From Bacteroidales bacterium (lineage in GTDB: Bacteria > Bacteroidota > Bacteroidia > Bacteroidales > P3), in NCBI GenBank assembly GCA_031272705.1, contig JAISTG010000076.1, positions 19,204 to 83,203 on the forward strand: DNA of 64,000 nt. The letters run 5' to 3'. The notes below the pieces were generated by a model. That model searched no databases, had not been told where the DNA came from, and saw only the letters and a list, made by a program, of their open reading frames with translations. This document shows positions 4,772-58,554 of the stretch, piece by piece (position 1 is the first letter of the stretch; every line of letters starts with the position of its first letter). A program made the position numbers and the translations under genes.

Positions 4772-4937
4772 GTGTTTCTGAACCTTTATCTCGGCGTAGC
4801 CAAATCAAATTACAGCGTGCTAGAATTTGATTATAGATTTCTGTAATTTGATTCCAGCGTTCTATAATTTGATTCTAATTTTCTATAATCAAATTCTAAA
4901 AAATTAGAATCAAATAAGAGAAATCCGTAATCAACTT
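4772..4937. repeat. 21-bp-phased AAT-CAA-ATT module array, locus A (7 modules)
   Basis: 9-mer cores start at 4803(+), 4824(-), 4845(-), 4866(-), 4887(+), 4908(+, AATCAAATA) and 4929(+, AATCAACTT), exactly 21 bp apart. The left flank GTTTCTGAACCTTTATCTCGGCGTAGCCAAATC matches the left end of locus D. Confidence 0.9.
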
Positions 4938-8100: not shown

Positions 8101-8158
8101 TGTGTTCCGAATTTCTTTTTACACTTTAAAATTTTGTTTTTTAATGTTCATATGACCA

Positions 8159-8225
8159 GAGGCGTAGTTACCCAAAAGATTATTTATCATTTTGGTTTCT
8201 TGAGGTATGCTACGCCGAAGTTTTT
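8159..8225 (+). repeat. hairpin element b (GAGGCGTAGTTACC...ATGCTACGCCGAAGTTTTT)
   Basis: GGCGTAG (8161-8167) pairs with CTACGCC (8210-8216). An inner CCAAAA/TTTTGG stem is also present. Confidence 0.8.
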
Positions 8226-8229
8226 GAAA

Positions 8230-8433
8230 GGACAGCCAACGAATGGTTTAGGACAACCAACGGATGGTTTAGGACAGCCAACGGATGGTTTAGGACAGCC
8301 AACGAATGGTTTAGGACAACCAACGGATGGTTTAGGACAGCCAACGAATGGTTTAGGACAGCCAACGAATGGTTTAGGACAGCCAACGGATGGTTTAGGA
8401 CAGCCAACGAATGGTTTAGGACAGCCAACGAAT
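8230..8433. repeat. 21-bp tandem repeat GGACAGCCAACGAATGGTTTA, 9 full units plus 15 bp
   Basis: Units start at 8230+21n. Only two positions vary: G/A at unit position 6 and A/G at position 13. Open in three frames, which is a repeat artefact. Confidence 0.95.
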
Positions 8434-8488
8434 AATTGTATATCATTATTAATTAATAAAGTATTAACCATAAAAAATTTATATCAAT

Positions 8489-9163
8489 ATGCCAAATAAC
8501 GCAGATTACATCCCAAAGGGAAACGAAGAATTTAGAACGTGGTCGGCAAATTTCACGGAGAAAGTAAGCACCGTGTTTTATATGACGTTCGATATTCCCG
8601 TGGCAAAGAAAAACGAACTCGTAACGGCTCAATTAGACTACGAGCAAAAACAAGCCCTCATTGACGCGGGCGACAACAAAAGCCAAAATATCCACATTCG
8701 CAACGTGGCAAGGGACGTGTTGAAAGCACTTATACGAGAAATCACACAGCAGTACATTCGCCACAATCCCGATGTGAATGTAGGGCAGTTGAATATGCTC
8801 GGTTTGCAGGCGTACGACACCGAACGGACACCGATACACGTGCCTATGATTTCGCCGTATGTCCATGTGGAAGTGGGTACAAACTTCTGGCATTATGTTT
8901 TCTGGGGACAGGAAATAACAGGGCAAAAGGTCAAAGGCGGGTTGCCCGAAGGAGCAACAGGGGTACAAATCTGGTGTAAAATGAGCGAAACTCAGCCAAC
9001 GTACGAAGAAATGGAATTTGCGGGGAATTTCACCAAATCTCCGCACGTCTTTACGTACTCTTCCACAGACCGTAAAAAGACCGTCTGGTATGCCATCCGT
9101 TATTACAATGCCAAAGGCGAGGTAGGACCATGGTCAATAATGATTCCGGCGATAATCAATTAG
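8489..9163 (+). CDS. hypothetical protein (possible Ig/FN3-like C-terminal half)
   Basis: 224-aa ORF with non-repetitive, protein-like composition. The C-terminal WYAIRYYNAKGEVGPWS motif resembles FN3-type strands. No family recognised. Confidence 0.55.
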   Translation: MPNNADYIPKGNEEFRTWSANFTEKVSTVFYMTFDIPVAKKNELVTAQLDYEQKQALIDAGDNKSQNIHIRNVARDVLKALIREITQQYIRHNPDVNVGQLNMLGLQAYDTERTPIHVPMISPYVHVEVGTNFWHYVFWGQEITGQKVKGGLPEGATGVQIWCKMSETQPTYEEMEFAGNFTKSPHVFTYSSTDRKKTVWYAIRYYNAKGEVGPWSIMIPAIIN

Positions 9164-15443: not shown

Positions 15444-15890
15444 ATGATTAGAACGAACAAAATCCTTTTTCATATAATTAACTATTTGAAATACAGATAT
15501 AAAGCCAAGAATGAATTTTCTATTCATTCTCCTTATATGTTTGAAACCTATCTTCAATGTATCAAGGGACGGAAAGATGATGATATAATCAGGGAACTGT
15601 CCAAACGAAATCAAGTTATAGAATTCTATAATCAAATTCCAGCAAACTGTAATCAAATTCTAGCGAACTGTAATCAAATTACAGAATTCTGTAATCAAGT
15701 TTCAGCAAACCATAATCAAATTACAGTAATTTATTACTTGAAAGGAATTTATCAAAACAAAAAAACACTGCAACAATGGGAAGAATTGCGGCAGCGAAAT
15801 AATGTATCACTTGATATAAATCTTTACTCTATGGGCTTGATTGTATGCAGAAAAGGTTTAAAACGTCAATCCTATATTCTAAAACGCTAA
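15444..15890 (+). pseudogene. probable remnant of a class I SAM-dependent methyltransferase; core replaced in frame by repeat array B
   Basis: The N-terminus (YLKYRYKAKNEFSIHSPYMFETYL) and C-terminus (VSLDINLYSMGLIVCRKGLKRQSYILKR) resemble the ends of ~220-aa Bacteroidota methyltransferases. No GxGxG SAM-binding core is present. The middle 42 codons are six 21-bp modules. Confidence 0.45.
15606..15734 (+). repeat. 21-bp-phased AAT-CAA-ATT module array, locus B (6 modules, all same orientation)
   Basis: Cores at 15609 (AATCAAGTT), 15630, 15651, 15672, 15693 (AATCAAGTT) and 15714. Translates in frame as heptads NQVIEFY NQIPANC NQILANC NQITEFC NQVSANH NQITVIY. Confidence 0.9.
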
Positions 15891-20090: not shown

Positions 20091-20196
20091 GTGTTTCTGA
20101 AATCAAATTACAGCGTGCTATAATCAAATTACAGAATTTTATAATCAAATTACAGCGTGCTGTAATTTGATTATAAAATTCTGTAATTTGATTTCA
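20091..20196. repeat. 21-bp-phased AAT-CAA-ATT module array, locus C (5 modules; 72-bp near-perfect palindrome)
   Basis: Cores at 20101(+), 20122(+), 20143(+), 20164(-) and 20185(-). 20122-20155 is the exact reverse complement of 20160-20193, with a 4-nt centre CGTG. Confidence 0.95.
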
Positions 20197-20280
20197 GGAA
20201 ATCCTAATGAGCAATCCTCCCAAATGAAAAGAAATAACACTAAATTATTATGTCCATTTGCTCATATCAATTTTTTTTTC

Positions 20281-24941: not shown

Positions 24942-25117
24942 CGTTTCCGGAACCTTTATTTTGGCGTAGCCAAATCTAATTACGATTCTCCATAATCAAA
25001 TAATATTTCTCTAAAATCAAGTTTCATTCATCTATAATCAAATAATAGACAAATATAATCTAATTATAGAACAATAGAATTAGATTTGGCTACGTCGAGT
25101 TAAAAGTTCGGAAAAGT
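24942..25117. mobile_element. MITE-like element: locus D array (6 modules) bounded by ~38-bp imperfect terminal inverted repeats
   Basis: The left end CGTTTCCGGAACCTTTATTTTGGCGTAGCCAAATCTAATT matches the reverse complement of the right end CTTTTCCGAACTTTTAACTCGACGTAGCCAAATCTAATT. Cores at 24973+21n (n=0-5), variants AATCTAATT/AATCAAATA/AATCAAGTT. No coding capacity. Confidence 0.7.
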
Positions 25118-30953: not shown

Positions 30954-31052
30954 CGTAATTTGATTATAGAAAATTAGAATCAAATTACAGCGTGCTAGAA
31001 TCAAATTATAGAACGCCGGAATTTGATTTCAGGAATACAGAATCAAGTTTCA
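30954..31052. repeat. 21-bp-phased AAT-CAA-ATT module array, locus E (5 modules)
   Basis: Cores at 30957(-), 30978(+), 30999(+), 31020(-) and 31041(+, AATCAAGTT). Confidence 0.9.
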
Positions 31053-31146
31053 GAAAATCATAATAGCATTTTACCTGCTTGAATACAAAAAAAGAGGACT
31101 TGCAAATTTGCAAATCCTCTTACATATGAATGGTTTAGAGTATTAT

Positions 31147-36007: not shown

Positions 36008-36148
36008 GGCGATTAGATTTCACCAAACTGAAATCAAATTACAGAATTCTAGAATCAAATTCTAGCGTTCTATAATTTGATTCTAGCACGCCGTAATTTG
36101 ATTCTAATTTTCTATAATCAAATTCTAATAATTTAGAGTCAAGTTTCC
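36008..36148. repeat. 21-bp-phased AAT-CAA-ATT module array, locus F (7 modules)
   Basis: Cores at 36011 (GATTAGATT, -), 36032(+), 36053(+), 36074(-), 36095(-), 36116(+) and 36137 (AGTCAAGTT). Confidence 0.9.
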
Positions 36149-36196
36149 GTAATCAGTTGTCAAATCAGACACCTTTTAATTCCAATTCCGCACCGA

Positions 36197-37606
36197 TTAA
36201 AAGCGAAAATAGATGAACGGATTAAAATCCGAAGCAATTATATGTGAGGTACTTATCACAAAAAGCAAAATAAAACACACGAAAAGTATGATATGTTGCC
36301 ACGTTTTATAATTCTCTCTGCAGAAAAAGAAATTTTGTATTTTTTGACCAAAGTTCCAGTATGGTAAAATGCTGAAAATAACCGCCGGAATTAACATCGG
36401 GAAAAATATGGGTTTGATTAGAGTTTCGGTATTTTGGGAAAAATCAAATAGATGCAGGAAATAGGTTGTTAATTGCCCAATGTCCTCTATTACAAAGATT
36501 AACCAGCCAAACATAACTATGATAAACGTAATTAAAATGGATATTGGTCGCCATAATCTGTTCAATAATTTCAACAGAAAGACCCTGTCAAGTATCAAAA
36601 ACAAACCGTGAAATGCTCCCCAAAAGATAAAATTCCACGCAGCCCCGTGCCATAAGCCCGAAAGCAAAAAACATAAACCCAGATTGAAATAGAGACGGTG
36701 TTTTGTTTTAACCCGATTTCCTCCAAGTGGGATGTACAGATAGTCTTTAATGAAAGACGAAAGCGAAATGTGCCATCGTTTCCAGAAGTCTGTGATTGAG
36801 GTTGATATATACGGATTTTTGAAGTTTTCAGGGTAGTGAAAGCCCATCATTTGCCCAAGTCCGATAGCCATATCGCTGTAACCGCTGAAATCAAAGTAGA
36901 TTTGGAAGGTGTAGGCTATCATTCCCATCCACGCAGACGCAGCATTGAGAGTTTGAAAGTCGGCTTCAAAGACCAAATTTGCCTCTTGAGCCATTGCATT
37001 TGCGATAAGAACTTTTTTAGCCAAGCCTATAGAAAATTTATAAAAGCCAATGAGTTTGTTATCAAAGGAATCGTTACGCTCAATCAGTTCATCGGCAATC
37101 GTTCCAAAGCGAACAATCGGTCCGGCTATCATTTGGGGAAACGCAATTATGTAAATAACATAGTCGGACAAACGTTTGAGTCGCTGATGTGTGCCTCGCC
37201 AAACGTCAATCGTATATGTAATGCTCTGAAAAACAAAGAATGAAATACCTATTGGCAGGGCTATCCGCATAATTTTTGGCATTGTGCCGCCGAAAAGGTG
37301 CATCAAACTGTCGGTTGTATCTATGAAAAAGTTAAAATACTTAAATACAAAAAGCAAACCAAGATTCAAAATTACGGAACAAATCATCAATGTCTTACTT
37401 TTTCTTTTGTCCATTTCGGCAACAAGATAGAAATTGACAATAGTTGTTGCTATAAGCACAAAAATAAATCTTGGTGCTCCCCAAGCATAAAATATCAGAC
37501 TGAATGCTAATAATACGTAATTCCTTGCTTTCTTTGGCATAAGCGAATAGGTCAAAAGAAAGACCGGAAGGAAAAAAAGAACGAATAAACTGCTGCTAAA
37601 TACCAT
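36197..37606 (-). CDS. MBOAT family O-acyltransferase (AlgI/DltB-like)
   Basis: 469 aa and polytopic. Conserved FWRRWH-type motif (DFWKRWHISLSSF) and the LSGLWHGA histidine. Confidence 0.85.
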   Translation of the reverse strand: MVFSSSLFVLFFLPVFLLTYSLMPKKARNYVLLAFSLIFYAWGAPRFIFVLIATTIVNFYLVAEMDKRKSKTLMICSVILNLGLLFVFKYFNFFIDTTDSLMHLFGGTMPKIMRIALPIGISFFVFQSITYTIDVWRGTHQRLKRLSDYVIYIIAFPQMIAGPIVRFGTIADELIERNDSFDNKLIGFYKFSIGLAKKVLIANAMAQEANLVFEADFQTLNAASAWMGMIAYTFQIYFDFSGYSDMAIGLGQMMGFHYPENFKNPYISTSITDFWKRWHISLSSFIKDYLYIPLGGNRVKTKHRLYFNLGLCFLLSGLWHGAAWNFIFWGAFHGLFLILDRVFLLKLLNRLWRPISILITFIIVMFGWLIFVIEDIGQLTTYFLHLFDFSQNTETLIKPIFFPMLIPAVIFSILPYWNFGQKIQNFFFCRENYKTWQHIILFVCFILLFVISTSHIIASDFNPFIYFRF

Positions 37607-38792
37607 TTGTTATTTGTTTTGAATGTTTTGAGGGATTGTTTTCGCCGAAGAAATGTTTGTTTAAGTCCTCTATGATACCATATCCATTATTCATATAATC
37701 ACCTCCGAGATACCGAAGATTACAATCACTTGCCATAACGATAATTAAGTCGGCTGATTTCAATTCATCAAATCGGCTAACGCTGTCTATGCTCAACGGC
37801 ATATTGTATCGTCGAAGCGAGTCGGTATAATTGATTTCGTGATAGTAGTACCAATACTCCCCTTCTTTGAAAAGAGTATTTGAAATGTCGTGAAAAATTT
37901 GCCAATAGTAAGAATCGCTGACCACAATCGTTTTAAGACGGTGATAATTGCTGTCTATAATCATTTCATATTCGGGATAAGCCAAAGGAGTATTGGTTTT
38001 CATACGCCGGATTAAGTTAAGAGTGTTTTCGCAGTCCAAATCATTACCTTCAGCCTTGTCTTTGGGATTAAGAGATGTAATTTTGAATGAATTATTGCAG
38101 TATGTGCCTGCGGTAAAATACTTAATCAACGAATCAATTACAAACATCTGACTATACCTTGACCAATGTACGCCCGTCTTAGGAAAAAGCGGATAGGTCG
38201 CTGTGTCTTTCATAGCCACAAACCACGACAGTAAATCAATGTTTTCAACATTATAATGCTTACAAGCCTCAATATAGGTTGCGTGATTGGTGTGTGGCTG
38301 TTGCATTTTCAAGTATCGGTCGGGTATAAACTCAGGATAGAAACTTCCTTTGCCCGGTGCAAAGATTATAATCATTCTTTGACCTCGTTTTGCCAGCGTA
38401 TCCTGTAACCTTTTAATGACCTGTACTTTTCTATAAATGGAATCTTCGCCTAAATAATTGATTCCGTTTACCGCATCAATGTATCCCATGTGGTAAAGGA
38501 AGTTTTCTTTTCCCATAATCACGGTTTCATTTGGGCAAATGTTAAAACAGGAGTAATAAATCTGATTTCGCAGCCGTATGAAATCGTTATGAAATCCGCA
38601 ACTGTCGTTAAGATACTGTTGCATCTTTGACTGGTAATCGCCATTGAGCCAAGCACGTAAGGTTAATGAAGGTTTGTTTTGACTTGCTGCGGCATAACCG
38701 TTAAGTTCCTTCCCTGTGGAGAAAGGGAAAAGGGTTTGAACAAGCGACAAACTCAAAATCATTATAAGCAATATGTATAAGATACGTTTCAT
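37596..38792 (-). CDS. AlgJ/AlgX-like (DHHW/SGNH-type) O-acetylation accessory protein
   Basis: 398 aa with an N-terminal anchor. KTGVHWS resembles the (D/G)xHW motif. Overlaps the MBOAT start by 11 nt, the usual MBOAT partner arrangement. Confidence 0.5.
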   Translation of the reverse strand: MKRILYILLIMILSLSLVQTLFPFSTGKELNGYAAASQNKPSLTLRAWLNGDYQSKMQQYLNDSCGFHNDFIRLRNQIYYSCFNICPNETVIMGKENFLYHMGYIDAVNGINYLGEDSIYRKVQVIKRLQDTLAKRGQRMIIIFAPGKGSFYPEFIPDRYLKMQQPHTNHATYIEACKHYNVENIDLLSWFVAMKDTATYPLFPKTGVHWSRYSQMFVIDSLIKYFTAGTYCNNSFKITSLNPKDKAEGNDLDCENTLNLIRRMKTNTPLAYPEYEMIIDSNYHRLKTIVVSDSYYWQIFHDISNTLFKEGEYWYYYHEINYTDSLRRYNMPLSIDSVSRFDELKSADLIIVMASDCNLRYLGGDYMNNGYGIIEDLNKHFFGENNPSKHSKQITNGI

Positions 38793-38824
38793 TTTTGCTT
38801 CTGTTTCAGGTAAATTTTGGTTTG

Positions 38825-38832
38825 CAAAGATA
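38825..38832 (-). promoter_or_regulatory. -7 promoter box TAtcTTTG of the O-acyltransferase operon
   Basis: Lies 33 nt upstream of the ATG at 38792. The palindrome array begins about 25 bp further upstream. Confidence 0.55.
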
Positions 38833-38854
38833 TAAAATTTCCTTTTATTGCATT

Positions 38855-39175
38855 GAAAGCCCGTTTTAATTTCACGAAACCTAGGTTCTAAAAAAATGAA
38901 ACCTAGGTTTCGTGAAATTGAAACCTAGGTTCTAAAAAAATGAAACCTAGGTTTCGTGAAATTGAAACCTAGGTTCTAAAAAATTAAAACCTAGGTTTCG
39001 TGAAATTGAAACCTAGGTTCTAAAAAAATGAAACCTAGGTTTCGTGAAATTGAAACCTAGGTTCTAAAAAAATGAAACCTAGGTTTCGTGAAATTAAAAC
39101 CTAGGTTCTAAAAAAATGAAACCTAGGTTTCGTGAAATTAAAACCTAGGTTTCACAACTCACGAAACGGGCTTTC
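38855..39175. repeat. array of 13 AACCTAGGTT palindromes at exact 22-bp phasing (44-bp alternating unit), flanked by a 12-bp inverted repeat
   Basis: AACCTAGGTT starts at 38878+22n for n=0-12. Units alternate GAAACCTAGGTTCTAAAAAAAT and GAAACCTAGGTTTCGTGAAATT. The flanks GAAAGCCCGTTT (38855-38866) and AAACGGGCTTTC (39164-39175) are reverse complements. Confidence 0.95.
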
Positions 39176-39203
39176 GTCAAAATGAAACGCCGTTCCATAA
39201 CAA

Positions 39204-39234
39204 CAAAAAAAACGACGAACAAAACTGTTCGCCG
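39204..39234 (-). terminator. rho-independent terminator after rocD
   Basis: Minus-strand RNA reads CGGCGAAC-AGUUUU-GUUCGUCG followed by a U run, 30 nt past the rocD stop. Confidence 0.7.
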
Positions 39235-39264
39235 AAAATACAATTTATTATGCTTAGTAAAAGA

Positions 39265-40485
39265 TTATTCAAAAGAAAGGATAGCCGATTTGATTATTTC
39301 TATCGCTTCACGCAACTCGGCTTCGGTAATCACCAACGGAGGAGCAAACCGAATGATATGCTTGTGTGTAGGTTTGGCAAGCAAACCCATATCACGCATT
39401 TTCAGGCAAACGTCCCACGCTTCCTTGCCATTGCGAGGACGAATCACCACTGCATTCAACAGCCCCTTGCCTCTAACAAGTTCAATCATATCACTGTTAA
39501 TTTTAGATATTTCTTCACGGAAAATGTTGCCAAGATACGCTGCCTTTTCTGCCAACTTCTCTTCCTTTACAACTTCCAAAGCAGCAATTGCAACCTTTCC
39601 TGCAAGGCAGAAACCGCCAAAAGTAGAGCCATGTTCGCCCGGTCCTATAGTTAGCATCACCTCATCGTCAGCCAGAACCGCCGAAACAGGAATCACACCG
39701 CCCGAAAGAGCCTTGCCAAGTATAAGAATATCAGGACGAACGCCTTCATGGTCGCACGCAAGCAGTTTTCCGGTACGAGCAATGCCCGTCTGAACTTCGT
39801 CAGCAATGAAAAGAACATTATGTTTCTTGCAAATGTCATAGCATTTCTTCAAATAACCTTCGTCAGGTACGAAAACACCAGCCTCTCCCTGTATAGGCTC
39901 AAGCAGAAACGCCGCAACCTTATCGCCACACTTTGTAAGAACATCTTCCAACGCTTTACTGTCATTGTAAGGTATGCGAACAAAACCCGGAGTGAAAGGA
40001 CCATACTCACCATAACTCTCAGGGTCATTACTCATTGAAACGATTGAAATAGTACGTCCGTGAAAGTTTCCGTCACAACAAACTATTATCGCTTCATTTT
40101 CCGCAATACCTTTTACTCTATAGCCCCAACGACGAGCCAGTTTCAACGCTGTTTCATCTGCTTCCGCACCTGTGTTCATCGGCAATACCTTATCGTATCC
40201 AAAATATTCTGTTACATATTTTTCATAAGGTCCAAGAGTGTCGTTATAAAATGCTCTTGAAGTAAGAGTTAGAGTTTGTGCCTGTTCGCAAAGAGCCTCT
40301 ACGATTTTCGGATGGCAATGCCCTTGATTTACCGCTGAATATGCGGAAAGGAAATCAAAATAACGTTTCCCTTCTACGTCCCAAACATAAGCCCCTTTCC
40401 CTTTTGATAAAACTACCGGCAAAGGATGGTAATTGTGAGCCCCATAATGATGCTCCATTTCCATTAACTGTTCTGATTTTGTCAT
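39265..40485 (-). CDS. rocD: ornithine aminotransferase (ornithine--oxo-acid transaminase)
   Basis: ORF trimmed to [59 protein letters not shown] and the PLP lysine context (ILGKALSGG). Confidence 0.9.
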
Positions 40486-40518
40486 ATTTAGATATATTTT
40501 TATTTTAATTTGAGGTTG

Positions 40519-40526
40519 CAAAGATA
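40519..40526 (-). promoter_or_regulatory. -7 promoter box TAtcTTTG
   Basis: Lies 34 nt upstream of the rocD ATG at 40485. Confidence 0.55.
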
Positions 40527-40643
40527 GCATAAATTTTTCAATTATACGCAAACTAACAAAAATATTGGCAAGACTGACGTCTCATCAATCCGTACAACAG
40601 ATTAGTTTTCTTATATTTGCATAATAAAGAAACCAAATAATAT

Positions 40644-40735: not shown

Positions 40736-40856
40736 TAAGTCTTGATTTCCGTTTCCTATAATCAATTTACAGCACGCTAGAATCAAATTACAGAAGTTTA
40801 TAATCAAATTCTAGCGTTCTATAATTTGATTATAGATTTTTAGAATCAAGTTTCAG
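40736..40856. repeat. 21-bp-phased AAT-CAA-ATT module array, locus G (6 modules)
   Basis: Cores at 40739 (GTCTTGATT, -), 40760 (AATCAATTT), 40781(+), 40802(+), 40823(-) and 40844 (AATCAAGTT). Confidence 0.9.
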
Positions 40857-40881
40857 AAAAGCAGGGTTTGAAAAACGATTT

Positions 40882-56229: not shown

Positions 56230-56961
56230 TCAATGTAAAAAAATGACCTCTTTTTGCTCTGCTTCAATAACTTGTCCATTCATTTGTTCCAAACACAAAG
56301 CCCCATAATGATTAACACCTATTATCTTCGCTCTAATGCGTTTTGATTTATAAATATAATCTCTTAACTCATTCATATACAATAAACAATCAAGATATTC
56401 CTCATTCATATCAGGGTTAATGCGAAAAGATTCATACCGAAAAGCAATACAGTTCAGTAATTCCCTCAATAACACGTTCAAATCCTGCGTTTTACCTGTT
56501 TCCAAAGCAAGAGATGTCGGATTTGGAACGTGCTTAAATCGGGTTTGATTGACGTTTAAGCCGATGCCACAAAATGCTTTGGAAAATTCTTCTCCAATTA
56601 TATTGTTTTGAATCAAAATTCCACATATTTTATTGCCTTTTATATAAATATCATTTGACCATTTTATTTTTATAAATTCCTCATTTACATATTTTTTTAG
56701 AAAATCCACCACTGATAAAGAAAGTATTTGTGTGAGTGAAAACTGCTCCGAAGGTTTGATAAACAGAGGACGTAAGAGCAAAGAGAATGTTAAATTTTTG
56801 TAATCTTCACTTTCCCAGATGTTGGCAGCCTGTCCTTTACCTTTGGTTTGAGATTGGGCAACGAAAACACTGCCTTCATTCATTTCCTGTATCTTATCAG
56901 CCTGTATTAACGATGTTTGCGTAGATGCAAGGCTCATAAAATTTTGTATATTGTACTGCAT
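56230..56961 (-). CDS. birA: biotin--[acetyl-CoA-carboxylase] ligase (group I, no HTH domain)
   Basis: 243 aa. The QTKGKGQAANIWES segment corresponds to the GRGRxGRxW biotin-binding loop but is unusually poor in Arg. KWSNDIYIKGNKICGILI motif present. Confidence 0.75.
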   Translation of the reverse strand: MQYNIQNFMSLASTQTSLIQADKIQEMNEGSVFVAQSQTKGKGQAANIWESEDYKNLTFSLLLRPLFIKPSEQFSLTQILSLSVVDFLKKYVNEEFIKIKWSNDIYIKGNKICGILIQNNIIGEEFSKAFCGIGLNVNQTRFKHVPNPTSLALETGKTQDLNVLLRELLNCIAFRYESFRINPDMNEEYLDCLLYMNELRDYIYKSKRIRAKIIGVNHYGALCLEQMNGQVIEAEQKEVIFLH

Positions 56962-56987: not shown

Positions 56988-57360
56988 CTGCTATTTTTCA
57001 TTTTAAGGTATCAAAATGCGAAAAAATTATATTATGTGCCTGTTTCAATTTGCCAAAATTTAGTAATGAATCATTTAGAGTAGTATTTCACTTTGGGTAA
57101 TACATTATAAATGACTTATTTTTCAATATGAATACAATGAAATCAACTTATAATTGTCTCAAACTTGCTTGGGTTCATCCAAAATCAAATAATATTGATC
57201 GTTTCCTGCGGGGAAACTGCAATTATCATGGCAGGAAACCATCGTTTTCCCCGCAGGAAAACATCATTATCCTGCGGAGAAACGCTCAATGTTCTTTGAT
57301 TATGGAGGAATAAAACTTGATTTTGAATAAATAAAACTTCACTTTGTGGAAACTTTTTCT

Positions 57361-57393: not shown

Positions 57394-58554
57394 ATGAAAC
57401 AAACATATATTTTTATTGTTGCAATGATTGCATTTTCTTATGTTTACGCTCAAAATTTTGATAGCGTAATAATGGCTCAGGAAAAGAAACAATTAGATTG
57501 TTTGATGTCGCTTCAGGTTGTTCTTTGTTGTTTGAAACGTTTTATATCTCCGCTCAAACCGACTCTGCTCAAAATCTAATTGCCTATTGGGAAGACAAAT
57601 GCGGACTTAGAGAACCTGTATTCAGGGCAAAACTAATGTTGGCTATGCGAAACGGCACTTATAATGATACAATACTGCCTTACAATATATTGGATTTTTT
57701 AACCAATTATGCGTATCGTATGGATGCAATCCGCCATAACAATTATAAAAGTTACGATACTTAATGGTTTTGTCCCTCTAAATCGCCAATACGATAAATT
57801 TACACAACAGGAGTTTGATTTGTTGAAGTTCAGGTACAATTCCGAATCCATAGAATATCTGTTGTGTGATTTCTATTCAGGCAATACGGATTCCATTCTT
57901 TCAAAAATACAGGATAAAAAGTACGACAGCACCACCATATCAAAGGAATACTACTCCATAATCAATGAAATAATGAAACCAAGTGATTGTCACGCATCAT
58001 TCATCGTTGGTACTTGGATACCAACAGGAAGTATGACAAAATTAGGGGTACATCCCGCATTCGGTTTTCAAATAGGTGCGAAAAGCAAAAAATGGAGTTA
58101 TGATGTTGCATTTATATTTAGCGGAAGCGTTTCCTCAAATCTGACCTATCCTTACAGAAGGTCATCTCACAGTTCTTGGGAAGTAAGTGACCATTTTGTG
58201 AATCTGTATCTTGCTTTTGAAACAGGAAGAGACATTGTTAAGGAAAAACACCATGAATTACAGGTTATTGGCGGAGCAGGTTTTGATGGATTTAATGGGA
58301 TACGAACGAATGAAGATGAGAAATCTGCTATGGGAATCACTTATGACTTAAATCTGGGGCTTGCTTACAGATATTACTTTACTCGAAGTTTTTATATGGG
58401 TCTGCGAGGCAAGTTGCATATAGTTGATTATAAATTAAGTGGAAATCTAAATATGACATCGCCTTATTTCAGTTTGCAGATGAGTATCGGTGGCTTTGAA
58501 ATGAGTGTTAAAAATCGTTATCTCAAAGGCTTACAATATAAAAATGACCGATAG
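57394..58554 (+). pseudogene. secreted beta-barrel-like protein gene interrupted by two compensating frameshifts
   Basis: Signal peptide MKQTYIFIVAMIAFSYVYAQ in frame 1. Protein-like sequence then continues in another frame (ORF 57498..57764) and returns to frame 1 (ORF 57709..58554). The shift windows are ~57465-57500 and ~57740-57764. Confidence 0.55.

What the first reader, a model, noticed from the sequence alone, without database searches (positions are those of the whole stretch)
38855..39175. Thirteen AACCTAGGTT palindromes phased at exactly 22 bp, abutting the promoter of an MBOAT/AlgJ-like O-acyltransferase operon
AACCTAGGTT starts at 38878+22n for n=0-12 with no deviation. Units alternate between GAAACCTAGGTTCTAAAAAAAT and GAAACCTAGGTTTCGTGAAATT, giving a 44-bp super-unit of about 6.5 copies. 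Each super-unit can fold as a 12-bp-stem hairpin. The block is bracketed by the inverted repeat GAAAGCCCGTTT / AAACGGGCTTTC. It ends about 25 bp upstream of the TAtcTTTG box (38825-38832) that precedes the 37596-38792/MBOAT operon, where a -33 element or activator site would sit. CTAG-containing palindromes (CCTAGG is the AvrII site) are generally avoided in bacterial genomes, so 13 copies in under 300 bp is striking. The array could be a cooperative operator for a dimeric regulator controlling surface O-acylation. It could be a copy-number-variable contingency locus. It could also be an iteron-like or methylation-sensitive element.
Basis: seen in the sequence. Interest (0 to 1): 0.75.

Follow-up and report, generated by a model that had tools for sequence, protein, structure and literature searches.

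The report
Tandemly amplified terminator-like hairpin minisatellite
The 13 evenly spaced palindromes are real, but they look like one transcription-terminator hairpin copied six times between two genes of an uncultured Bacteroidales bacterium, not like a dedicated control site for the neighbouring O-acyltransferase operon.

Summary
AACCTAGGTT occurs 13 times at 38878+22n (0.1 expected), as 6.3 copies of a 44-bp unit at 97% identity.

On the minus strand, from which both flanking genes are transcribed, each 44-bp unit reads as a 13-16 bp stem, an 8-nt loop and a T6-7 run. That makes six intrinsic-terminator-like hairpins (-19 to -23 kcal/mol). They lie after the ordinary rocD terminator and before the TAtcTTTG promoter of the AlgX-like/MBOAT operon.

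The "bracketing inverted repeat" is the two outermost decayed repeat units, still in 22-bp phase. The unit junctions match the loops of ordinary terminators in relatives.

The array is absent upstream of the AlgX-like/MBOAT operon of the closest relative recovered. Arrays with the same 10-bp core in other Bacteroidales sit beside unrelated genes. No rep gene, DnaA-box excess, GC-skew switch, transposase or regulator is nearby.

Best reading: a lineage-specific minisatellite grown by slippage from a terminator whose arms are palindromes. It works like the E. coli BIME array REP325.

Two things remain unexplained. The genome is almost free of CTAG, and 21 of its 23 sites lie in repeat arrays. 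The clade also has a marked excess of 21-22-bp arrays. Protein binding and methylation roles are not excluded.

The parts
38878..39151 (.). Block of 13 perfect AACCTAGGTT palindromes at exactly 22-bp spacing. Spacers alternate between CTAAAAAAATGA and TCGTGAAATTGA, giving 6.3 copies of a 44-bp super-unit.
38855..38866 (+). Left arm of the 12-bp inverted repeat (GAAAGCCCGTTT). It is decayed repeat unit 0, in 22-bp register with the array (register start 38856). It overlaps the expected -33 region of the AlgX-like gene promoter.
39164..39175 (-). Right arm of the inverted repeat (AAACGGGCTTTC on the + strand). It is decayed repeat unit 14, in register (39142+22), and is followed by an A-type-like spacer GTCAAAATGA.
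39186..39195 (.). A further decayed in-phase unit 15 (AACGCCGTTC) with a G+C-rich core, like the terminator stems of relatives.
39116..39155 (-). First-transcribed terminator-like hairpin: 16-bp stem, 8-nt loop, -23.4 kcal/mol, with the T-run directly after it.
39075..39108 (-). Terminator-like hairpin 2 (13-bp stem, loop of 8, then CATTTTTTTA).
39031..39064 (-). Terminator-like hairpin 3 (13-bp stem, -19.1 kcal/mol, then CATTTTTTTA).
38984..39023 (-). Terminator-like hairpin 4 (16 pairs, then TTTTTT).
38943..38976 (-). Terminator-like hairpin 5.
38899..38932 (-). Terminator-like hairpin 6.
39205..39234 (-). Ordinary intrinsic terminator of rocD: 9-bp G+C-rich stem (39234-39213), loop of 4, T8 tail, -12 kcal/mol.
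38825..38832 (-). Bacteroidota-type -7 promoter box TATCTTTG of the AlgX-like/MBOAT operon, 32 nt upstream of the ATG at 38792.
39265..40551 (-). Upstream gene: ornithine--oxo-acid transaminase (rocD, class-III aminotransferase). These coordinates are the longest ORF. Public annotations give products of 406-421 aa.
37596..38792 (-). Downstream gene 1: AlgX-like SGNH O-acetyltransferase (PF16822), NCBI MDR1847730.1.
36197..37606 (-). Downstream gene 2: MBOAT family O-acyltransferase, overlapping the AlgX-like gene by 11 nt.

Best explanation
The block is a non-coding minisatellite. It was produced by tandem amplification, in 44-bp steps, of a Rho-independent-terminator-type hairpin whose two arms are themselves palindromes (GAAACCTAGGTTTC). 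Because each arm is a palindrome, the inverted repeat of the hairpin also reads as a 22-bp direct repeat. That makes the hairpin a ready substrate for slipped-strand mispairing or unequal recombination. On the minus strand, the coding strand of both neighbours, the array presents six successive stem-loop-plus-U-run modules. They sit behind the ordinary rocD terminator and in front of the promoter of the AlgX-like/MBOAT operon. If any polymerase reads through from rocD, the array should stop it, and the hairpins may also protect the rocD 3' end. This would insulate the O-acyltransferase operon, which has its own promoter immediately downstream. Shown here: the sequence, phasing, folding potential, strand asymmetry, decayed in-phase units at both ends, resemblance of both junction types to terminator loops of relatives, and absence from the relatives recovered. 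Inferred: the slippage origin, actual termination and stabilisation in vivo, and variability of copy number. The amplification itself need not be adaptive.
For: Seven terminator-like sites lie on the minus strand in 38600-39400, against 0.6 expected, and none lies on the plus strand. Hairpin energies are -19.1 to -23.4 kcal/mol. Two evident terminators of the same window fold at -12.0 and -18.6 kcal/mol. Units 10/12 share a variant that fits duplication in 44-bp steps, and unit identity is 97%. Decayed units at 38856, 39164 and 39186 keep the 22-bp register but have G+C-rich cores. These cores resemble the AAACGGCGTTT-type terminator stems of relatives. The junction GTTTCGTGAAATTGAAAC matches the L005 terminator loop GTTTCGTAAAAATGAAAC at 16 of 18 positions, and GTTCTAAAAAAATGAAAC matches the L154 loop GTTTTAAGAAAATAAAAC at 15 of 18. 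The nearest operon relative carries a 42-bp x2 hairpin module of the same build right after its MBOAT gene. The array is absent upstream of the operon in L005. It is also absent downstream of rocD in relatives whose rocD is 90-94% identical. E. coli REP325 has 12 alternating palindromic units, arranged as six two-hairpin modules between tandem genes. It was shown experimentally to terminate transcription and stabilise the upstream mRNA, giving a ladder of transcripts (bioRxiv 10.64898/2026.03.23.713779).
Against: An ordinary terminator already precedes the array, so six more look redundant. In five of the six modules the U-run starts 2 nt after the stem. An alternative pairing register that buries the U-run in the loop is almost as stable, at -18.3 kcal/mol. 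The strand match with the flanking genes has a 50% prior. The 10-bp core is invariant in 13 of 13 units and contains CTAG, in a genome that has purged CTAG. Meanwhile the arrays still lack the other avoided palindromes GATC and AGCT, each 0 observed against about 4 expected. That hints at sequence-specific selection, or at protection by a bound protein. Arrays with the same core in two other Bacteroidales MAGs have no T-runs. The matches to relatives' terminator loops were picked after seeing the sequences. No expression data exist.
Confidence: 0.5

Rival explanations
1. Protein-binding array. A dimeric DNA-binding protein recognises the AACCTAGGTT palindrome and polymerises along sites spaced about two helical turns apart. 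It could be an operator or activator array, a partition- or iteron-like site, or a nucleoid-structuring site. Binding would regulate or structure the region upstream of the AlgX-like/MBOAT promoter.
For: The 10-bp core is perfectly conserved in 13 of 13 units, and all variation is in the spacers. Outer palindrome positions covary between lineages: GAAACCTAGGTTTC, ACAACCTAGGTTGT, GCAACCTAGGTTGC. The same core at 21-22-bp phasing recurs in two other Bacteroidales MAGs, out of only 4 hits among 185,579 species genomes. A Bacillus velezensis plasmid has TTGAAACCTATAGGTTACAAAAA x3.5 between a helicase gene and an HTH gene, in an operator- or iteron-like position. CTAG is concentrated in arrays while GATC and AGCT stay avoided there. 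The nearest site centre lies about 63 bp upstream of the estimated transcription start.
Against: No regulator, rep or par gene was found among the window genes scanned. The array is absent from the nearest related operon. Same-core arrays lie beside unrelated genes. With only 4 substitutions in the array, their restriction to the spacers is not significant (p about 0.09, own calculation). A 22-bp period drifts about 34 degrees per unit off one helical face. Phased arrays with ACCTAGGT cores are no commoner in viral contigs than those with three composition-matched palindromes: 5 loci against 7, 11 and 3.
Confidence: 0.17
2. Neutral VNTR. The array is a slippage product with no effect on either neighbour. 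It is tolerated because it lies between a complete terminator and a complete promoter.
For: High unit identity points to recent expansion. The array is lineage-specific. It sits exactly between a functional-looking terminator and a promoter. The clade is littered with other 21-22-bp arrays in every kind of intergenic region, including between convergent genes.
Against: The sequence almost inevitably forms strong hairpins followed by U-runs if it is transcribed at all, so complete neutrality for read-through transcripts is unlikely. This rival differs from the best explanation only in whether the effect matters to the cell.
Confidence: 0.15
3. Non-autonomous mobile element. The array would be a MITE with an internal minisatellite, like BrickBuilt of Porphyromonas gingivalis. 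The 12-bp inverted repeats would be its termini, and it would have inserted between rocD and the AlgX-like gene and possibly supplied promoter sequence.
For: An exact 12-bp inverted repeat bounds the block. BrickBuilt has a 23-nt spacer-less minisatellite, an intergenic location and promoter activity (PMC4596501). The Alloprevotella MAG carries its 22-bp unit at two loci or more. The left arm overlaps the -33 region.
Against: The window holds only one locus in 64 kb. There is no target-site duplication next to the arms. The arms are in phase with the array and look like decayed units rather than transposase-binding ends. No BrickBuilt/IS5-type terminal repeat is nearby. No transposase was found among the window genes scanned. 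Flanks are not conserved between the two Alloprevotella loci, or between the window and L004.
Confidence: 0.07
4. Contingency or epigenetic switch. Copy number, CTAG/CCTAGG methylation state, or inversion between the 12-bp repeats would switch expression of surface O-acylation.
For: The tandem repeat is slippage-prone. The downstream genes modify surface glycans, a typical target of phase variation. The array holds 13 CTAG sites in an almost CTAG-free genome. Inverted repeats bound about 300 bp, as in Bacteroidales invertons. Inversion would move the T-runs to the other strand.
Against: The array lies upstream of the -33/-7 boxes, so changes in unit number keep the promoter geometry. No promoter motif lies inside the invertible segment. 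No recombinase or methyltransferase was found among the window genes scanned. The only second sample shows the same orientation and sequence at the left junction. The rocD terminator outside the segment would make a terminator flip pointless.
Confidence: 0.08

Closest known systems
E. coli BIME-2 arrays, in particular REP325 between yjdM and yjdN
   Same: Both are tandem arrays of palindromic units with two alternating linker types. REP325 has 12 units, arranged as six two-hairpin modules. Both lie in the intergenic space of two genes on the same strand. REP325 was shown to attenuate transcription into the downstream gene, stabilise the upstream mRNA and give a ladder of truncated transcripts (bioRxiv 10.64898/2026.03.23.713779).
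   Different: REP units are 30-50-bp imperfect palindromes that each fold on their own, alternate in orientation, occur at hundreds of loci, and are tied to a RAYT transposase. Here the units are 10-14-bp perfect palindromes that pair with their neighbours and carry U-runs, as in intrinsic rather than partly Rho-dependent termination. They occur at one locus in 64 kb. They carry no GTAG or CGTC tag, and no RAYT is known.
BrickBuilt MITE minisatellite of Porphyromonas gingivalis (PMC4596501)
   Same: The host is in the same order, Bacteroidales. Both are spacer-less 22-23-nt tandem repeats with up to about 23 copies, are strictly intergenic, are bounded by short inverted repeats, and lie next to promoters.
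   Different: [quoted passage not shown] It has about 19 copies per genome and bidirectional promoter activity. None of these was found here. The repeat arms here are decayed units of the array itself.
Plasmid iterons, for example the seven 22-bp iterons of the R6K gamma origin (own knowledge)
   Same: Both are direct repeats at an exact 22-bp spacing, about two helical turns. A look-alike, TTGAAACCTATAGGTTACAAAAA x3.5, lies between a helicase gene and an HTH gene on a Bacillus velezensis plasmid.
   Different: The window has no rep gene, no DnaA-box cluster and no GC-skew switch. The setting is chromosomal, next to rpoBC and ribosomal-protein genes. Iterons are normally asymmetric, not perfect palindromes.
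Ordinary Rho-independent terminators of this Bacteroidales clade
   Same: Both have a stem built from AAAC...GTTT arms, an A-rich loop of about 8 nt (GTAAAAAT or GTGAAATT) and a U-run. The loop and stem-base sequence matches at 15-16 of 18 positions. The orientation matches the upstream gene.
   Different: The stem core is CCTAGG instead of GGCG or GCCC. The module is repeated six times and sits behind another complete terminator.
Promoter-associated contingency repeats (own knowledge: repeat tracts in or between promoter elements of Neisseria and Haemophilus surface genes)
   Same: Both are unstable repeats next to a promoter of surface-modification genes.
   Different: Those tracts have 1-7-nt units and lie inside the promoter spacer or the ORF. 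This array has 22/44-nt units and lies wholly upstream of the -33 element.

Membership tests
Intrinsic (Rho-independent) terminator | Stable stem-loop followed directly by a U-run on the transcribed strand, downstream of a gene | tested here: met
   Six modules on the minus strand with 13-16-bp stems, 8-nt loops and T6-7 starting 0-2 nt after the stem, at -19 to -23 kcal/mol. They lie downstream of rocD.
Intrinsic (Rho-independent) terminator | Transcripts actually end there | not testable with these tools
   No transcriptome data are available for this MAG.
REP / BIME | Palindromic units in tandem with alternating linkers | tested here: met
   Spacers alternate between CTAAAAAAATGA and TCGTGAAATTGA, giving a 44-bp super-unit.
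REP / BIME | Each unit is a 20-50-bp imperfect palindrome that folds alone, and units alternate in orientation | tested here: not met
   Units are 10-14-bp perfect palindromes. Stable hairpins form only between neighbouring units.
REP / BIME | High copy number dispersed over the genome | tested here: inconclusive
   There is one locus in 64 kb, and no other match to GAAACCTAGGTTTC at 2 mismatches or fewer. The rest of the genome was not available.
REP / BIME | Conserved GTAG or CGTC tag at the unit end, and a cognate RAYT transposase | tested here: not met
   No GTAG or CGTC occurs in the unit. No transposase was found among the window genes scanned. A RAYT elsewhere in the genome cannot be excluded.
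BrickBuilt-type MITE with minisatellite | Spacer-less tandem repeat of 22-23 nt, located intergenically | tested here: met
BrickBuilt-type MITE with minisatellite | Non-repetitive leader and tail ending in IS5-type terminal inverted repeats, with multiple copies | tested here: not met
   No GAGACCTTTGCA-like sequence lies near the array. The inverted-repeat arms are in-phase decayed units. The window holds a single locus.
Iterons of a replication origin | Direct repeats of 17-22 bp at about 22-bp spacing | tested here: met
Iterons of a replication origin | Adjacent rep gene, DnaA boxes, an A+T-rich unwinding element and a GC-skew switch | tested here: not met
   The neighbours are housekeeping genes. 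DnaA boxes number 21 against 21 expected, and none lies in this spacer. There is no skew inflection near 39 kb.
Operator array of an operon-specific regulator | Sites conserved upstream of orthologous operons, with a cognate regulator nearby | tested here: not met
   The upstream region in L005 lacks the motif. Same-core arrays lie next to unrelated genes. No HTH gene was found among the window genes scanned.
Contingency locus (phase-variable repeat) | Repeat located inside the ORF or between promoter elements, so that unit changes switch expression | tested here: not met
   The array ends 46 bp upstream of the -7 box and lies outside the -33 to -7 spacer.
Contingency locus (phase-variable repeat) | Copy number varies within or between populations | not testable with these tools
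   The only second sample is a short-read contig that breaks inside the array.
Bacteroidales inverton | Inverted repeats flanking a promoter-bearing segment, both orientations present, and a recombinase | tested here: inconclusive
   A 12-bp inverted repeat is present. However, no TAnnTTTG box lies inside the segment, no recombinase was found among the window genes scanned, and only one orientation was seen. Read-level data are not available.

The most novel reading that the evidence does not exclude
The array could be the most extreme visible member of a clade-wide system of 21-22-bp-phased palindromic arrays that does not depend on one sequence. Of 34 tandem arrays in 169 kb from this Bacteroidales group, 24 have this period. 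The arrays hold essentially all CTAG sites of otherwise CTAG-free genomes, yet still avoid GATC and AGCT. That pattern would fit a dedicated protein that reads these arrays every two helical turns. Such a protein could be nucleoid-structuring, methyl-directed or a recombinase. The result would be an uncharacterised chromatin-like or epigenetic layer, in which the 21-bp arrays act as curved DNA and the 22-bp CTAG array as a straight, densely modifiable platform next to a surface-modification operon.
Probability: 0.12. Interest if true: 0.8.

Novelty: new variant of a known kind. Interest (0 to 1): 0.45.

Why it matters
If the reading is right, the locus is a clean natural example of a terminator hairpin with palindromic arms seeding a minisatellite. 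It would also be a Bacteroidales counterpart of E. coli BIME arrays such as REP325, which act as 3'-UTR terminator-stabilisers. It warns against reading every phased palindrome array near a promoter as an operator. The by-products may matter more than the locus itself. This clade shows near-total avoidance of CTAG and GGCC, a strong excess of 21-22-bp minisatellites, and 21-bp arrays predicted to be the most curved DNA in the window. None of these is described in the papers found here. Together they could be used for strain typing (VNTR) and for studying genome structure in uncultured gut Bacteroidales.

Tried and rejected
(1) Intrinsic curvature upstream of the promoter. A wedge-model calculation puts the 22-bp array among the straightest DNA of the window. 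The end-to-end/contour ratio is 0.98, and 99% of 252-bp segments are more curved. The Bolshoy-Trifonov parameters were recalled from memory.

(2) Replication origin or iterons. There is no GC-skew switch, DnaA boxes are at the chance level, and there is no rep gene.

(3) Known RNA family. Every Rfam match is far below its gathering score, and the matches are generic hairpins.

(4) BrickBuilt homology. No IS5-type terminal repeat was found.

(5) A special 'CCTAGG array family'. They cover all G+C contents, and none carries the window's unit. Control scans in viral contigs give similar counts for three other composition-matched palindromes. The core is therefore not specially common among phased arrays.

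(6) Conserved flanks between same-core arrays. Local alignments of the window array's flanks against those of L004 were not significant, and the MAFFT alignment of L001 with L002 showed no conservation beyond the repeat units.

(7) An empty orthologous site. Relatives whose rocD is 90-94% identical have different neighbouring genes, so no precise insertion or expansion comparison was possible.

(8) Retrieving the rest of the source contig, or other strains. Exact-protein look-ups for the longest ORFs of rocD and the AlgX-like gene, and for P0001, failed. Only one 2.8-kb contig from SRR14710912 was recovered, and it ends inside the array.

(9) Plasmid and phage similarity. The only hit was a weak look-alike on Bacillus velezensis plasmids, and there was none in phages.

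(10) Coding potential. No ORF crosses the array, and every unit carries a TAG.
Full report
OBSERVATION. The finding is accurate. AACCTAGGTT occurs 13 times in the window, all at 38878+22n, against 0.10 expected by chance. Tandem Repeats Finder describes the block as 6.3 copies of a 44-bp unit at 97% identity without indels. Two 22-bp unit types alternate: AACCTAGGTT+CTAAAAAAATGA and AACCTAGGTT+TCGTGAAATTGA. Point variants occur in units 5, 10 and 12. Units 10 and 12 share the same variant, as expected if growth occurs in 44-bp steps. The exact 12-bp inverted repeat GAAAGCCCGTTT / AAACGGGCTTTC bounds the block at 38855-38866 and 39164-39175. TATCTTTG lies on the minus strand at 38825-38832. TAnnTTTG boxes sit 25-45 nt before many start codons of the window, so it is a credible Bacteroidota -7 element. 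One caveat applies. The source is a metagenome-assembled contig, and a short-read assembly of a second sample stops inside the array. The copy number is therefore only as reliable as the assembly.

SETTING. The window is chromosomal DNA of an uncultured Bacteroidales bacterium (38% G+C). The source is an NCBI MAG, in which the AlgX-like protein is MDR1847730.1 (locus tag LBR17_06390) on a 117.6-kb contig. It carries rpoB/rpoC-sized ORFs, tRNA genes and other housekeeping genes. The array lies between two minus-strand genes. Upstream is rocD (ornithine--oxo-acid transaminase, 39265-40551). Downstream is an overlapping pair: an AlgX-like SGNH acetyltransferase (37596-38792) and an MBOAT acyltransferase (36197-37606). 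In the direction of transcription the order is as follows:
- the rocD stop codon;
- an ordinary terminator (39234-39213, T8);
- two decayed repeat units;
- the 13 perfect units;
- one decayed unit that overlaps the -33 region;
- the -7 box;
- the ATG at 38792.

No ORF crosses the array. No Rfam family reaches its threshold.

WHAT THE UNIT IS. On the minus strand every 44-bp super-unit reads GAACCTAGGTTTC-AATTTCAC-GAAACCTAGGTTT followed by CATTTTTTTA. This is a 13-bp stem (16 bp in two of the six), an 8-nt loop and a U-run. The consensus scan finds seven terminator-like sites on the minus strand in 38600-39400, against 0.6 in shuffles, and none on the plus strand. Six of the seven belong to the array, and the seventh is the rocD terminator. 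The hairpins fold at -19.1 to -23.4 kcal/mol. Two evident terminators of the window fold at -12.0 and -18.6 kcal/mol. The first hairpin to be transcribed is the strongest and has its U-run directly after the stem. It sets the register for the rest. The alternative register, which would bury the U-run in a loop, is slightly weaker at -18.3 kcal/mol.

ORIGIN. Printing the region in a 22-bp register shows that the 'bracketing' repeat arms are themselves repeat units in phase with the array. These are 38856 AAAGCCCGTTT (unit 0) and 39164 AAACGGGCTTT (unit 14), followed by 39186 AACGCCGTTC (unit 15). Their cores are G+C-rich instead of CCTAGG. Such AAAC-GGCG/GCCC-GTTT arms are the usual terminator stems in related genomes. 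Both junction types of the array match the loops of those terminators. GTTTCGTGAAATTGAAAC matches GTTTCGTAAAAATGAAAC in L005 at 16 of 18 positions. GTTCTAAAAAAATGAAAC matches GTTTTAAGAAAATAAAAC in L154 at 15 of 18. These targets were chosen after inspection, so the p-values are optimistic. A hairpin whose arms are themselves near-palindromes reads as a direct repeat of about 21-22 bp, which invites slipped-strand mispairing. I therefore read the array as a terminator hairpin of this type that acquired a CCTAGG core and was amplified recently in 44-bp steps. Its older copies are decaying at the edges. The nearest operon relative even carries a two-copy, 42-bp module of the same build immediately after its MBOAT gene.

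COMPARATIVE EVIDENCE. The AlgX-like protein has one 100% match, on the 117.6-kb contig that one search identifies as the source, and then nothing closer than 65%. That relative (L005) has a different upstream gene and no array. Genomes whose rocD is 90-94% identical have other neighbours and only an ordinary terminator after rocD. A second sample (SRR14710912) has the same left junction, base for base. The array is thus specific to this lineage.

A scan of one genome for each of 185,579 species, asking for three AACCTAGGTT at 20-24-bp spacing, found four loci. Two are in one Alloprevotella MAG (ACAACCTAGGTTGT, period 22). One is in a Bacteroidales MAG (GCAACCTAGGTTGC, period 21, 11.8 copies). 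One is in a Pseudomonas (period 23). These lie beside unrelated genes, and their flanks are not similar to each other or to the window. Control scans show that three other composition-matched palindromes form phased arrays about as often: 5 loci against 7, 11 and 3. There is thus no evidence for a special 'CCTAGG array' family, although a Bacteroidales-restricted one is not excluded.

An operon-specific operator is not supported. The array is not conserved with the operon, same-core arrays lie next to other genes, and no regulator was found among the window genes scanned. An iteron reading fits only the geometry. There is no rep gene, DnaA boxes are at the chance level and there is no GC-skew switch. 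A classical contingency mechanism is unlikely because the array lies upstream of both promoter elements. Copy-number variation itself could not be tested. The remark about CTAG is more than borne out. The window has 23 CTAG against about 135 expected, and 21 of them lie in repeat arrays. By compartment, observed against expected is 2/50 in coding DNA, 0/4.5 in other intergenic DNA and 21/13.6 in arrays. GATC and AGCT remain absent from the arrays, each 0 against about 4 expected. Relatives are equally CTAG-free. Amplification of one CTAG-bearing unit explains the number 13. The selective tolerance of CTAG in arrays is not explained, and it keeps a protein-binding or methylation-linked role alive.

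COMPARISON WITH KNOWN SYSTEMS. The closest working analogue is the E. coli BIME array REP325. It has 12 palindromic units of two alternating types, forming six two-hairpin modules between the tandem genes yjdM and yjdN. It was shown to attenuate transcription, stabilise the upstream mRNA and yield a ladder of transcripts (bioRxiv 10.64898/2026.03.23.713779). Membership in REP/BIME fails on unit size and self-folding, on the GTAG/CGTC tag, and, within the window, on copy number. RAYT could not be assessed. BrickBuilt of P. gingivalis shares the order, the 22-23-nt spacer-less repeat and the intergenic position. However, it has long leader and tail segments with IS5-type ends and about 19 copies per genome (PMC4596501), none of which is seen here. 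I therefore file the array as a new variant of the hairpin-minisatellite / BIME-like kind, not as a member of either family.

CONTEXT NOTICED. The window holds eight further phased arrays of period 21. Their near-palindromic core is CTRTAATCAAATTAYAG in either orientation, and they occur in divergent, tandem and convergent intergenic regions. Over 169 kb from this clade, 24 of 34 tandem arrays have period 21 or 22, with unrelated unit sequences. One of those loci (L004) was found through its array, and two (L158, L159) carry the same locus. A wedge-model calculation predicts that the 21-bp arrays are the most curved DNA of the window. It predicts that the 22-bp array is among the straightest (parameters recalled from memory). 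This rejects static curvature as an explanation for the finding. It also suggests that the 21-bp class has a structural basis of its own.

VERDICT. The best explanation is a recently amplified terminator-derived hairpin minisatellite that insulates rocD from the AlgX-like/MBOAT operon (confidence 0.5). The structure and origin are better supported than the in-vivo effect. The rivals are:
- a protein-binding array (0.17);
- a neutral VNTR (0.15);
- a contingency, epigenetic or inverton switch (0.08);
- a MITE (0.07).

Interest is moderate. The locus itself is a variant of a known kind, but the CTAG islands and the clade-wide excess of 21-22-bp arrays deserve follow-up.

Noticed in passing
window 4802-4935, 15601-15727, 20102-20206, 24971-25090, 30955-31060, 36030-36150, 40755-40865: A second, dispersed family of phased arrays with period 21 and core AATCAAATT / AATTTGATT. 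The extended core is the near-palindrome CTRTAATCAAATTAYAG, found in both orientations in register. The arrays have 3-6 units at 64-84% identity and often form 20-bp-stem hairpins. They occur about once per 8 kb, in divergent, tandem and convergent intergenic regions. Two arrays share a leader, GAACCTTTAT..GGCGTAGCCAAATC (4781, 24950), which recurs inverted at 25083-25096.
   Followed up: partly
window 15615-15741, 4805-4931, 40740-40866, 36029-36155: In a Bolshoy-Trifonov wedge model (parameters recalled from memory), the 21-bp arrays are the most curved DNA of the whole window. Four of the ten most curved 126-bp segments fall in them, with end-to-end/contour ratios of 0.65-0.74 against a median of 0.96. 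The 22-bp AACCTAGGTT array is among the straightest.
   Followed up: partly
whole window, plus L005, L154, L157, L158: Several 4-bp palindromes are avoided to an extreme degree. Observed/expected ratios are GGCC 0.02, CTAG 0.04 once the arrays are masked, AGCT 0.18, GATC 0.18, GCGC 0.19, TCGA 0.29 and CATG 0.36. Only two CTAG lie outside repeat arrays, both inside the 1272-aa rpoB-sized ORF (49625, 50041). Relatives show the same pattern. This suggests heavy restriction pressure or another mechanism that purges CTAG. No restriction-modification gene was found among the window genes scanned.
   Followed up: partly
window + L004, L005, L154, L155, L157, L158/L159 (169 kb): There is a clade-wide excess of minisatellites with period 21-22. 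Of 34 TRF arrays, 24 have this period (20 of period 21, 4 of period 22), and their unit sequences are unrelated. Examples are GGAAGAAAAGTTCTCGTCTGT x11.6 at L154 15329-15571 and GTACATCAAAATAAAATAAGAT x5.3 at L157 6011-6127. L004 was selected through its array, and L158 and L159 carry the same locus.
   Followed up: partly
window 8229-8433 (ORF 8134-8499, + strand): A 21-bp array, AGGACAGCCAACGAATGGTTT x9.8 at 94% identity, reads as (GQPT[N/D]GL)x10. It lies in a 121-aa TTG-start ORF with no Pfam match. Whether it is coding is uncertain.
   Followed up: partly
L005 12619-12703: In the closest relative of the AlgX-like/MBOAT operon, a two-copy 42-bp module lies immediately downstream of the MBOAT gene. 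Its hairpin is GGCTGTTT-GGGAAAAAT-GAAACAGCC, followed by an A-rich spacer. It has the same build as the window's 44-bp unit but sits at the other end of the operon.
   Followed up: partly
L127 2490-2700 (Bacillus velezensis plasmid pBvelV314_2, NZ_CP097785.1): A 23-bp array, TTGAAACCTATAGGTTACAAAAA x3.5, plus scattered GAAACCTAGGTTA-like sites, lies between an ATP-dependent helicase gene and an HTH-domain gene. It looks like an operator or iteron set and resembles the window's A-type unit.
   Followed up: partly
L003 1149-1428 (Pseudomonas sp. MN1F, NZ_VZII01000020.1): A 23-bp array of 11.9 copies changes along its length from ...CAGAAACCTAATTTATGTA... to ...CAGAAACCTAGGTTGTGTGG.... It sits in a contig of 60% G+C and holds 5 of the 6 CTAG in 8 kb.
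   Followed up: no
window 57200-57290: Repeated TTTCC(C)CGCAGGAAA-type palindromes at about 21-22-bp spacing lie between the divergent genes 56230-56961 (-) and 57709-58554 (+).
   Followed up: no
L004 7205-7453: In the Bacteroidales MAG array (period 21), CTAG units (AACCTAGGTT) and CTCG units (AACCTCGGTT) are intermixed. The spacers alternate as near reverse complements (GCAAACTTTC / GCAAAAGTTC). All 7 CTAG of the 8-kb locus lie in the array.
   Followed up: partly
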